Source: Octopus vulgaris (Eukaryota). From it: a stretch of 64,000 bases of DNA. Where the stretch lies: positions 61,814,001-61,878,000 of the forward strand of contig OX597815.1 in NCBI GenBank assembly GCA_951406725.2, given 5' to 3'. The notes beneath the pieces were generated by a model. It had not been told where the DNA came from. It did not search any database and saw nothing but the letters and a program-made list of their open reading frames with translations. Shown in pieces: positions 37,030 through 61,560 of the stretch (its first letter is position 1; each line of letters begins with the position of its first letter). The position numbers and the translations under genes were made by a program.

Positions 37030-37099
<70 letters not shown>

Positions 37100-37109
<10 letters not shown>

Positions 37110-37874
37110 GTATATAAGTAAAAGGGCAGGCAACAGGTTGCTCTGCCGCATACCGAAAGAATTAGCAGTCAGAGACTGTTTAATTCCATTTTCTACAAGT
37201 GGGGGCTCCATATACGACATAACCCTGCAATTCACATACGCGAAATCGGAGTACCGAAATTTACCGGTAAATAATTGTTGGTTGTCTAAAAAACCATCCC
37301 AAAAAATTATTTACCCTTTTATTATATTACCAATTGGATTTTTACTCCATTACGACTATCCCAGTGGTGCGCATGGCAGAATTTTTGGAGGGAAAATTGA
37401 AGGTCTCGGTCGTTTACTTAGTTTTAACCTATGCACACTCCCCCCCACTATCTGATGACGCCTGATCAGAGGTGGAGGCTAGTGGCATTTGATAAATCTA
37501 ACGAAGATGGTGCTGACGAAAGACTTTAGGCAATTTCTCGCCTACGATCTAGAAACATGTTCACCATTAACGGTAAAAGATTGTTTTCCTTTATTTGCTA
37601 CTCCGATTTTGCGTATGTGAATCGCAGGGTTATGTCGTATATGGAGCCTCCACTTGTAGAAAATGGAATTAAACAGTCTCTGACTGCCATTTCTAATTCT
37701 TTCGGTATGCGGCAGAGCAACCTGTTGCCTGCCCTTTTACTTATATACTACTATATATACTGAACTCTACAGAAGTTCCCGACGCTAAAAGTCATATTTA
37801 CATACCGAAATTTACCGGTAAATAATTGTTGGTTGTCTAAAAAACCATCGAAAAAAAATTATTTACCCTTTTAT

Positions 37875-37880
<6 letters not shown>
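37100..37880 (+). mobile_element. Non-coding PLE-type / retrozyme-like element
   Basis: Inverted repeat 37100-37253 / 37599-37759, direct repeat about 37252-37325 / 37803-37877, internal hammerhead ribozyme. Confidence 0.75.
37507..37567 (+). ncRNA. Type I hammerhead ribozyme
   Basis: ATGGTG [CTGACGA] aAGA..TAGGC-loop-GCCTA..TCTa [GAAA] C AT G TT CACCAT. Perfect 6-bp stem I, palindromic stem III ACATGT, GUU cleavage triplet; first pair of stem II is A-A. Confidence 0.75.
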
Positions 37881-37947
<67 letters not shown>

Positions 37948-58939: not shown

Positions 58940-61560
58940 CACAGTTTGAAGAGGACCTCCTGTTTATTGTTAAGAATGTTAAATTCCATCGTTCACCCTT
59001 AAGAAATAAATATCTGAGATATCTACGTAATATTACCAAAGAAATAAACAGCATGGAAGGCATCCTTGTTCAATCGGATAAAACTGGTAACCTGTATCAT
59101 TTAAACACAGATTCTTACTTAAAGCTACTCAGGAAGGAAATACAAAAAATATACATGGCTACTAGTAAAAATGCTATCAGAAAGGCTAACCTAGAAGCTG
59201 AGAAAATTATGGAAAAATATAACTTGCAAATGAAAACTGAGCCTTTATCTCCAAAGCAACTCCATTTTGTCTTAACGGATCACAAACCTAGCTTCTTCAA
59301 TAATCCAACTCTCCGTCTTATCTGCCCCTCCAGCTCGGATATCGGTATACTTAGCAAAAATATTCTTGATAAGTACATTCCTTCGTTAACGAAAATACTT
59401 AAACTTAATTTATGGTTTAACTCGTTCCAGGTTGTGGACTGGTTCACAACTCTATCGATAATAAACTAAACACTAAATTTATTCAGTTCAATATCTATAG
59501 TTATTATTCCTCTATCAATCACATCAACCTTAATAAAGCCCTATGGTTCACGCATAATAAAGCCAGCCTCACCCGGGATGAAATTAATGTTGTTATAGCA
59601 ACTAAAAAATCTATTATCCAACTTGATAACAAATTTTGGATTCATAAAGATCGACCCTACTGCTTTGATATCCCTATGGGTTGTAGCGATTCCGCACAAA
59701 TAGCTGATTTGGTAGGTATTTATATTTTATCAGAAATGGATAGCCAATTTCTATATATACTCGGTAGTTTATATCGCGACGACTTTTCCCTTTACCTCCA
59801 AAATATCTCTAATCAAAAACGTTAAATGGTTAAACGCAAAATTGTCAAATTCTTTAGTAATATGGGCCTAAGTATTAGGCCCATATGATTATAGAACTAA
59901 GATAGAATGATGATAGAACTAAGGTTAACTTCCTTGATCTTACTCTCAACTTAAATACGGCCTCATATTTCCCATATCATAAACCTTCAACTAACCTGAA
60001 ATACATCAGCCTTTTTAGGTATCACCCTACCAATATAACAAACAAATTAGTTAAAAACATATCGCTTTGAATCTCTAAATCATCTGCCAATGAAACCATT
60101 TTCAATAATAACTCTGATTTCTATAATTCAGCGTTATATAAAACAGGATATAAGAAATAAATTAAGTATTATAACCATCTTGTCCTTAACTCTTCCTCTA
60201 ATCATAACAGTAATAATACTACTAACAATAATAGTAGTAATAATATTAATAGTAACAGACAAAATGACAACAAAAATACGCACATCGTTCCTCTCGTAGA
60301 CAATAATCCGAATAATATCCCATTACATCATAACAGCCTTAGTCGTTACCATCGGAATTTTAAAAACAAATAGTCAAAGGGACGTAACTATCATTCCCCA
60401 CTCTTTTTCCGTTCTTTAAAAAAGACATTAAGTTTTTTAATAATAAATTTTTCCATAAATCGCGTAACCCTGGTAAAAATATCTAGTTGATTGTTCCATG
60501 CGGAAAACAAGTTAAAAGTAACTTTGCCCGCCCATTTCATAAAGCTATCGAAAGAAAATTTCCCATAAATTCCAGTTACCACTCAATTTACAACACCCAC
60601 CCTATCAGAATTTGCTTCTCCAGCACCAGCAACCTCCTGCAGATTATATCCTTGCATAACAACTATATTCTCAAAGGTAATAGAGTATTTCTTAATAACT
60701 GTAATAACATTAATAATATTAACTATAATCTCTCCTTGAATAATAATATCAATGATATTAGTCTTTGTAACTGTGGCTCGAATAAAACTTGCGTCCTCAA
60801 TTGCAGTATTAAAAATGTTGTTTACCAATGCAAAATTACCTCTGGATCTACAGAATTCTTTTATATTGGATTGTCTACGGAGTTGAAAAGCCGTATCAAG
60901 AACTATGTTTCCACTTTTAAATGCAGTCATATGCGTAATTTTACAGGACTTAGTAAGCTAATTTGGCACCTTAAAGACTCTAATAAACGTTTTTCTTTAG
61001 ACAGGAAAATTTTATCAAGATTATTTCCACATGATAAAGGGAAATCTTTCTGTCCTCTTTGTACGGACGAACAACTACCTATTCTCTTTTCTGAGCATAA
61101 ACTGGTAAACACTTTTAATGAACGTATTTACAGGTGTTTGCATTGGAAAAAAACGCTGTTTTGCCTTTCTTAAATATCTACCCTCACCTAATAATCATTT
61201 TTGCAACTTATCTATTCTTTATTCTTACTTCCCATACTCTCTGTTCTCCCCTTTATCTTTCTTTCTATCTATCATCTATTCTCTGTTTGCTCGTACCTCT
61301 CTCTCTCCTTTAATTTTCGTTCTTTCGTTCCCTCTTTCTTCCTCGATACCTTCTCTTCTTCCCTCGTCCCATGACGCCTGTTTTCTCAACGGCATTTTTA
61401 AATGACTGCGTTCCCTTCACAACTTCGCTTTCCAAATATGTATATGCATCTATGTATGTAAGTGTTCCTGTATGTATATGCATGTGTATTTATATATGTG
61501 TGCATGTGTGCCTGTGTATGTATATGTGTGTTTATATGTGTATGTATCTATACGTATATA

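What the first reader, a model, noticed from the sequence alone, without database searches (positions are those of the whole stretch)
37100..37880. Second, unrelated HHR-bearing non-coding element with a ~550-bp unit and a long inverted 5' copy
Seen: an inverted repeat of about 155 bp (37100-37253 vs 37599-37759, with a 6-bp indel), a direct repeat of about 75 bp roughly 551 bp apart, and a type I HHR at 37507-37567 with a perfect 6-bp stem I. No sequence similarity to the 50.9-kb element is visible. Inference: a circularly permuted, slightly more than unit-length copy is what reverse transcription of a circular or tandem RNA template would leave. It could be a second retrozyme family or a solo pLTR.
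Basis: partly seen in the sequence, partly recalled or inferred. Interest (0 to 1): 0.75.

Follow-up and report, generated by a model that had tools for sequence, protein, structure and literature searches.

The report
Fast-evolving hammerhead retrozyme family
This is one of over a hundred scattered copies of a 550-base non-coding repeat that carries a predicted self-cutting RNA motif and was likely pasted into TA repeats by a Penelope-type jumping-gene enzyme; its active lineage appears to have changed about ten times faster than its dead copies, which makes it testable whether such RNAs also copy themselves as RNA.

Summary
The locus is a 1.13-unit copy plus an inverted arm of a family with a circularly permuted 545-551-nt unit (119 exact motif hits genome-wide, arrays up to 7 units) and two sister families (542 and 73 hits). 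The type I hammerhead covaries, and its core passes from C3-G8 through U3-G8 to U3-A8. I found no ORF and no parent Penelope-like element (PLE), so it reads as a non-LTR retrozyme rather than a solo pLTR. Ends are not freely permuted: 101 of 134 3' ends fall at two internal TATA-like sites abutting (TA)n, and back-to-back arms avoid reusing a site, the known PLE footprint. The scan noted this footprint before, for other families in this genome and another. Not found in the papers or scan notes searched: copies form one ladder with 0.26 changes per site, mostly keeping base pairs, while each rung's copies decayed only 0.3-2.5%, about tenfold faster than neutral. Serial error-prone retrotransposition can explain that; RNA-to-RNA replication is not excluded. 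Cleavage, expression and circularity are untested.

The parts
37045..37106 (.). (TA)n target, left half
   Evidence: sequence; 106 of 134 family 3' ends have TA within 8 nt
37099..37253 (-). inverted arm = unit positions 348-508, 3' end at site B; inferred second-primed cDNA
37252..37877 (+). direct arm, 626 nt = 1.13 units, 3' end at site A
37252..37802 (+). one 551-nt unit; non-coding; predicted branched rod fold
   Evidence: circular MFE z=-8.9 against 25 shuffles, longest ATG ORF 68 aa
37319..37329 (+). site A, internal copy (U/A-rich, predicted single-stranded)
   Evidence: 46 of 134 3' ends; unpaired probability 0.93
37507..37567 (+). type I hammerhead: 6-bp stem I, C3-G8 core, extra A on each side of stem II, 2-bp palindromic stem III, GUU site (predicted cut after 37561)
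   Evidence: same layout in sister families
37740..37759 (+). sites C and B (internal TATA runs)
   Evidence: 55 ends at B and 6 at C of 134
37803..37877 (+). start of a second unit (the 75-bp direct repeat), ending at site A
37876..37941 (.). (TA)n target, right half

Best explanation
The locus is a copy of a non-coding, hammerhead-bearing 551-nt repeat family (a non-LTR retrozyme) that was likely reverse-transcribed into a (TA)n tract by a Penelope-like element's enzyme, priming twice on what was likely one circular or multimeric RNA. Shown: permuted unit, tandem arrays, covarying ribozyme and fold, two preferred 3' ends at internal TATA-like sites, back-to-back arms from one event, a single ladder-like lineage. 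Inferred: read-through transcripts of dimers and arrays are cut by the hammerhead (in this family probably as a dimer, given the 2-bp palindromic stem III) and ligated by a host ligase; a (TA)n-targeting PLE protein nicks both strands; each TA end pairs with an exposed UAUA site and primes cDNA; the two cDNAs are joined. This copy has one hammerhead and is probably a dead end. The fast lineage rate would come from many serial, error-prone retrotransposition rounds under selection on RNA structure.
For: 119 exact motif hits, 0 control. 87 loci map to the permuted unit; 7.1-unit array at C18. Hammerhead: 96.8% of cells paired, 5 of 17 pairs with double changes, in 52 distinct rows of 80. Sister families keep the layout with other stems. 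101 of 134 3' ends at sites A and B; 46 of 88 insertions tail-out; none with two 5' ends. Same-site pairs 2 vs 11.5 expected, P=0.0002. Family F2 repeats this: 57 of 78 ends at A or B, 1 of 78 in its TATA-rich stem II, 0 of 33 pairs A+A, P=1e-6. Arms differ by 136/5078 (2.7%), direct repeats by 62/2667 (2.3%), unrelated copies by 10.8%. A young Neptune-type PLE (148 scored matches, open frames to 895 aa) ends at two sites 40 nt apart, all 33 ends beside (TA)n. A Poseidon PLE protein extends both target strands from two internal RNA sites in vitro (PMC11167929).
Against: No cleavage, expression or circle shown. Rfam finds no hammerhead. GUU site and the two extra A's are atypical, and 8 of 9 predicted Xenopus retrozymes did not cleave in vitro (bioRxiv 10.64898/2026.07.22.740005). 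No sequence link to Neptune (best E 0.19, 29 loci) or Hydra (no hit at E<=0.5, 24 loci), so the enzyme donor is unassigned. Inner junctions do not lie at the partner's priming site more than with shuffled partners (17 of 46 vs 14.5, P=0.23). In Poseidon the start sites are not homologous to the target, and exact ends are ambiguous in (TA)n. Whole-unit pairs with double changes (27) only modestly exceed shuffles (22.9; 30 of 500) on a structure derived from the same alignment.
Confidence: 0.72

Rival explanations
1. The unit is a viroid-like circular RNA that also replicates RNA-to-RNA in the host (or is re-acquired from outside), and the genomic copies are snapshots captured by PLE enzymes.
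For: 122 lineage changes over 461 sites while copies on all rungs decayed 0.3-2.5%. Lineage changes keep pairing in 28 of 41 cases against 33 of 124 for private decay, P=4e-6. Nested changes, 374 of 4791 site pairs incompatible, no rise with distance. Folds at z=-4.4 to -8.9. In a 19-row Neptune clade the inner path is only about 0.02. Mussel retrozyme circles matched no database entry (PMC7229834); plant retrozyme replication reported (PMC9695139 abstract).
Against: No hammerhead on the minus strand of this copy. No A>G strand bias (21 vs 18 T>C, P=0.27). By my estimate one to a few thousand RT rounds in 3-7 My (one per few thousand years) would suffice; the RT error rate used is recalled. 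The Neptune control is weak: 25 of 30 loci picked by an exact motif, and its two subfamilies are 0.09 apart.
Confidence: 0.17
2. The unit is the solo pseudo-LTR of an autonomous PLE that was not sampled or has been lost.
For: PLE-type ends and inversions. Extra nucleotide after A9, palindromic stem III and U3-A8 cores occur in PLE hammerheads (PMC4209133). 24 of 57 Xenopus retrozyme families matched known TEs, nearly all PLEs.
Against: No ORF abuts the unit in 136 loci; the 12 loci with PLE hits are 102 nt or more away, and the two nearest are separated by (TA)n. Pure arrays of 7 and 12 units exist. The unit has no PLE protein similarity (best E 0.19).
Confidence: 0.07
3. The repeat is a satellite spread at DNA level with a vestigial hammerhead-like motif, and this locus is a local rearrangement.
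For: Units of the C18 array share variants between non-adjacent units, which suggests some DNA-level expansion. The lone motif folds weakly.
Against: Dispersed copies with fixed 3' ends and scattered 5' ends; compensatory changes in stems and in the core pair.
Confidence: 0.03

Closest known systems
Metazoan non-LTR retrozymes (PMC7229834; bioRxiv 10.64898/2026.07.22.740005)
   Same: Non-coding, low-GC unit with one type I hammerhead; monomers to multimers; stable self-paired fold; co-occurs with PLEs.
   Different: Unit 545-646 nt (170-400 nt in the 2020 paper, within the 51-972 bp of the preprint); extra A on both sides of stem II and a GUU site; no parent pLTR found; tail-out arms and a fast ladder-like lineage are not described in the parts I read.
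Penelope-like elements, Neptune/Poseidon/Hydra clades (PMC8557442, PMC11167929, PMC4209133)
   Same: Inverted 5' copy, partial tandems, two alternative 3' ends used at opposite ends of an insertion, (TA)n targets, palindromic stem III, U3-A8 core variant.
   Different: No ORF; the two ends are 119 nt apart on the unit rather than 30-40 nt; start sites are complementary to the target, unlike Poseidon in vitro.
Plant LTR retrozymes (PMC9695139 abstract; described)
   Same: Non-coding hammerhead RNA of similar size with sequence drift suggestive of RNA-level replication.
   Different: Type I not type III hammerhead, no LTR structure, PLE-type rather than Ty3-type insertion.

Membership tests
non-LTR retrozyme | type I hammerhead in each unit | tested here: met
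   covariation in stems I, II and the 3-8 pair; same layout in F2 and F3; Rfam models do not hit
non-LTR retrozyme | head-to-tail dimers to multimers | tested here: met
   7.1-unit array and dimers; 12-unit F2 array
non-LTR retrozyme | non-coding, GC below about 45% | tested here: met
   GC 0.33-0.40, longest ATG ORF 68 aa in 4 units; unit lengths not multiples of three; no Pfam hit for 3 window frames
non-LTR retrozyme | no PBS or PPT | not tested
   not searched
non-LTR retrozyme | self-cleavage of the transcript | not testable with these tools
   needs in vitro transcription
non-LTR retrozyme | expressed as linear and circular monomer RNA | not testable with these tools
   only contigs of runs guessed to be RNA were available
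PLE-type insertion | inverted 5' copy and partial tandem | tested here: met
   46 of 88 tail-out; 24 of 88 longer than one unit
PLE-type insertion | two alternative 3' ends, one per end of the insertion | tested here: met
solo pLTR of an autonomous PLE | unit flanks or matches the terminus of an RT-EN ORF | tested here: not met
   only one Neptune and one Hydra family sampled
plant LTR retrozyme | type III hammerhead in LTRs with 4-bp target duplication | tested here: not met
   type I topology, permuted unit, (TA)n flanks
viroid-like RNA replicon | ribozymes in both polarities | tested here: not met
   hammerhead descriptor hits the plus strand only; other ribozyme classes only via Rfam
viroid-like RNA replicon | RNA-to-RNA replication | not testable with these tools
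   indirect only: lineage rate

The most novel reading that the evidence does not exclude
An animal viroid-like circular RNA that replicates at RNA level as a single fast-evolving, structure-constrained lineage, with the genome holding a dated fossil series of it (including a C3-G8 to U3-G8 to U3-A8 walk through the ribozyme core), captured by Penelope-like enzymes that prime telomerase-style on target-complementary UAUA loops.
Probability: 0.17. Interest if true: 0.88.

Novelty: new variant of a known kind. Interest (0 to 1): 0.52.

Why it matters
Animal retrozymes are assumed to hijack PLE enzymes and have been suspected of RNA-to-RNA replication, with little direct evidence for either. This family gives two named priming sites, candidate donor PLEs with long open frames, and a measurable lineage rate about ten times neutral. 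It also records a natural compensatory path through the hammerhead's 3-8 pair, with the wobble intermediate present in 15 of 64 copies.

Tried and rejected
Rfam: only microsatellite-driven miRNA hits among the 150 of 262 shown for the window; none for the element; no hammerhead among 44 hits in sister arrays. Endless or remnant ORF: stop-free stretches of 130-203 aa occur in some copies, but indels break the frame between subfamilies and Pfam finds nothing. Parent PLE: Neptune and Hydra families show no homology. P0001, which I first took for Naiad from recall, has the DKT motif of Hydra. Strict L1-type twin-priming adjacency: not above shuffled partners. No pile-up of arm lengths at one unit that would show a monomeric circle. 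Ends at the cleavage site: 0 of 134 3' ends and 1 of 42 5' ends, but the sample was chosen to span the ribozyme, so this is uninformative. Recombination between two parents as cause of the ladder: rejected. ADAR-type bias: not seen. A possible short intron after the ribozyme: no such joint in four runs' contigs, which cannot show absence. Expression: no RNA holder listed; contigs of four runs guessed to be RNA hold pieces of the family and relatives, which is no evidence of transcription. One search had faulty core labels and was redone. One motif search gave no match. Searches for lineage-rate papers returned nothing relevant among the 15 listed.

Full report
Observation. The inverted arms are 37099-37253 and 37599-37759 (151/160, one 6-nt indel) and the direct repeats 37252-37325 and 37803-37877 (72/75, 551 apart). 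The element lies between two (TA)n tracts. A type I descriptor finds 37507-37567 as the only hit in the window and nothing in 100 control windows. Rfam does not recognise it and alone it folds no better than shuffles. The host genome is 2.8 Gb in 227 contigs; that it is an octopus is my inference from size, repeat make-up and recall, not a test.

Family. A 20-nt motif of the ribozyme's 3' half has 119 exact hits and 0 control hits. I mapped 87 loci: 29 of the 30 from the similarity search (40 of 1118 candidates scored) plus loci from the first 100 of the 119 motif hits, overlaps removed. All map to a circularly permuted 545-551-nt unit (F1). 24 of 88 insertions exceed one unit and one is a 7.1-unit array. 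Loose ends led to two colinear sister families at about 75% identity: F2 (616-646 nt; 542 and 371 motif hits; arrays to 12 units) and F3 (553-562 nt; 73 hits).

Ribozyme. In 80 copies (52 distinct) 96.8% of cells pair and 5 of 17 pairs change on both sides, while slid controls give 26-40%. F2 and F3 keep the core, an extra A on each side of stem II and a GUU site, with different stems and G10.1-C11.1. F1 has a 2-bp palindromic stem III, the form reported to need dimers (PMC4209133). Among 64 F1 copies the 3-8 pair is C-G in 30, U-G in 15, U-A in 17 and other in 2. With the core removed from the tree, 16 U-A copies form the youngest clade (100/98), nested in the U-G grade. Against a simple path: F3, which has C-G, falls as sister to that clade (97/82), which needs a reversion or is a long-branch effect. 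U3-A8 is known from Schistosoma PLE ribozymes.

Whole unit. Four units fold as circles at z=-8.9, -5.2, -4.8 and -4.4 (25 shuffles each) and have no ATG ORF above 68 aa. An 18-unit alignment gives 166 pairs, 93% paired, 27 with double changes against 22.9 in shuffles (30 of 500 as high); the structure came from the same alignment, so this is moderate support.

Insertion footprint. Of 134 sense 3' ends, 46 are at site A and 55 at site B, both internal TATA-like runs; 5' ends scatter. 46 of 88 insertions are tail-out pairs like this one and none has two 5' ends. The two arms avoid the same site (2 vs 11.5 expected). F2 repeats this in 45 insertions (one locus skipped as cut by its edge): 57 of 78 ends at A or B, one in its TATA-rich paired stem II, and no A+A among 33 pairs. 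Arms of one insertion differ by 2.7%, like internal direct repeats (2.3%) and unlike unrelated copies (10.8%), so they come from one event. Site A is predicted unpaired (0.93), site B less so (0.52; unit mean 0.41). This matches the inverted copy and one-sided tail of PLEs (PMC8557442) and the two-strand, two-site internal initiation of a Poseidon protein (PMC11167929), except that there the sites were not homologous to the target. Junctions do not show strict twin-priming adjacency.

Donor. A young Neptune-type PLE (148 scored matches, 858 motif hits, frames to 895 aa) ends at two sites 40 nt apart, 17 and 16 of 33 ends, all beside (TA)n. A young Hydra-type family with many 727-aa frames also exists. 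Neither is homologous to the unit. Of 136 retrozyme loci (overlaps included) 12 have PLE protein hits, none abutting; the two nearest are separated by (TA)n. Other PLE families were not sampled. Trans-mobilisation is therefore inferred.

Lineage rate. F1 copies form one ladder of nested changes with low incompatibility and no distance trend. Across eight rungs I count 122 changes over 461 sites (0.26 per site). Duplicated stretches within insertions date the first seven rungs at 1.0-2.5% and the last at 0.33%; divergence from each rung's majority, an upper bound, is 0.7-3.2%. The active lineage thus changed roughly ten times faster than dead copies, wherever the root lies. Lineage changes keep pairs in 28 of 41 cases against 33 of 124 for private decay (partly circular). 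With the calibration 0.09 = 25 My (PMC13282606, valid only if the host is an octopus) this is 3-7 My. Serial retrotransposition with an error-prone RT could do that at one round per few thousand years (my estimate, error rate recalled). RNA-level replication, suggested for mussel and reported for a plant retrozyme, is the bolder reading. The Neptune control shows little acceleration within a 19-row clade but is biased to young copies.

What is known. The element meets the testable features of non-LTR retrozymes (PMC7229834; bioRxiv 10.64898/2026.07.22.740005). No cephalopod retrozyme paper appeared in the listings, and an Octopus vulgaris repeat paper has no mention of ribozymes in its main text; its supplements were not read. 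The scan's notes already hold the twin-primed footprint for other families (seen after my own analysis); a sequence look-up and a word look-up for the ladder returned nothing. Papers seen: bioRxiv preprint parts 1-3 of 5; PMC4209133 and PMC11167929 parts 1-2 of 4; PMC8557442, PMC7229834 and PMC13282606 passages; PMC9695139 abstract; no supplements.

Verdict. A real, young retrozyme family with PLE-type insertion. The class is known and the footprint was noted before in this scan; the fast, structure-constrained lineage and the core path are the added value. Cleavage, expression, circularity and the donor enzyme remain untested.

Noticed in passing
window:50930-51560: The other hammerhead element is a roughly 360-nt partial dimer between (TA)n tracts with a U3-A8 core; unrelated in sequence to this one.
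   Followed up: partly
L062-L090 3' ends; L114:1410-1450; window:50960-51030; youngest F1 clade: Four unrelated hammerhead-bearing elements in this genome carry the U3-A8 core, suggesting a shared bias or repeated convergence.
   Followed up: no
window:18975-20245: 5'-truncated Neptune-type PLE with an inverted piece, 88-96% identical in protein to the young family.
   Followed up: partly
window:54219-55166 and 59062-59876: Older Neptune-like and Hydra-like PLE fragments.
   Followed up: no
window:39455-39525 (minus strand): Hammerhead-like core with a 6-bp stem I that failed the stricter descriptor; possibly chance or a decayed motif.
   Followed up: partly
L169:1372-5117, L170:1171-4916: The Neptune element has two overlapping frames (495 aa and 811 aa) in tandem copies, consistent with a frameshifted ORF1.
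   Followed up: no
L222-L245: Very young Hydra-type PLE family with many 727-aa open frames and frequent tail-out pairs.
   Followed up: partly
L131:1860-1960: F2 stem II carries a long AT-rich hairpin extension whose TATA runs are almost never used as 3' ends.
   Followed up: yes
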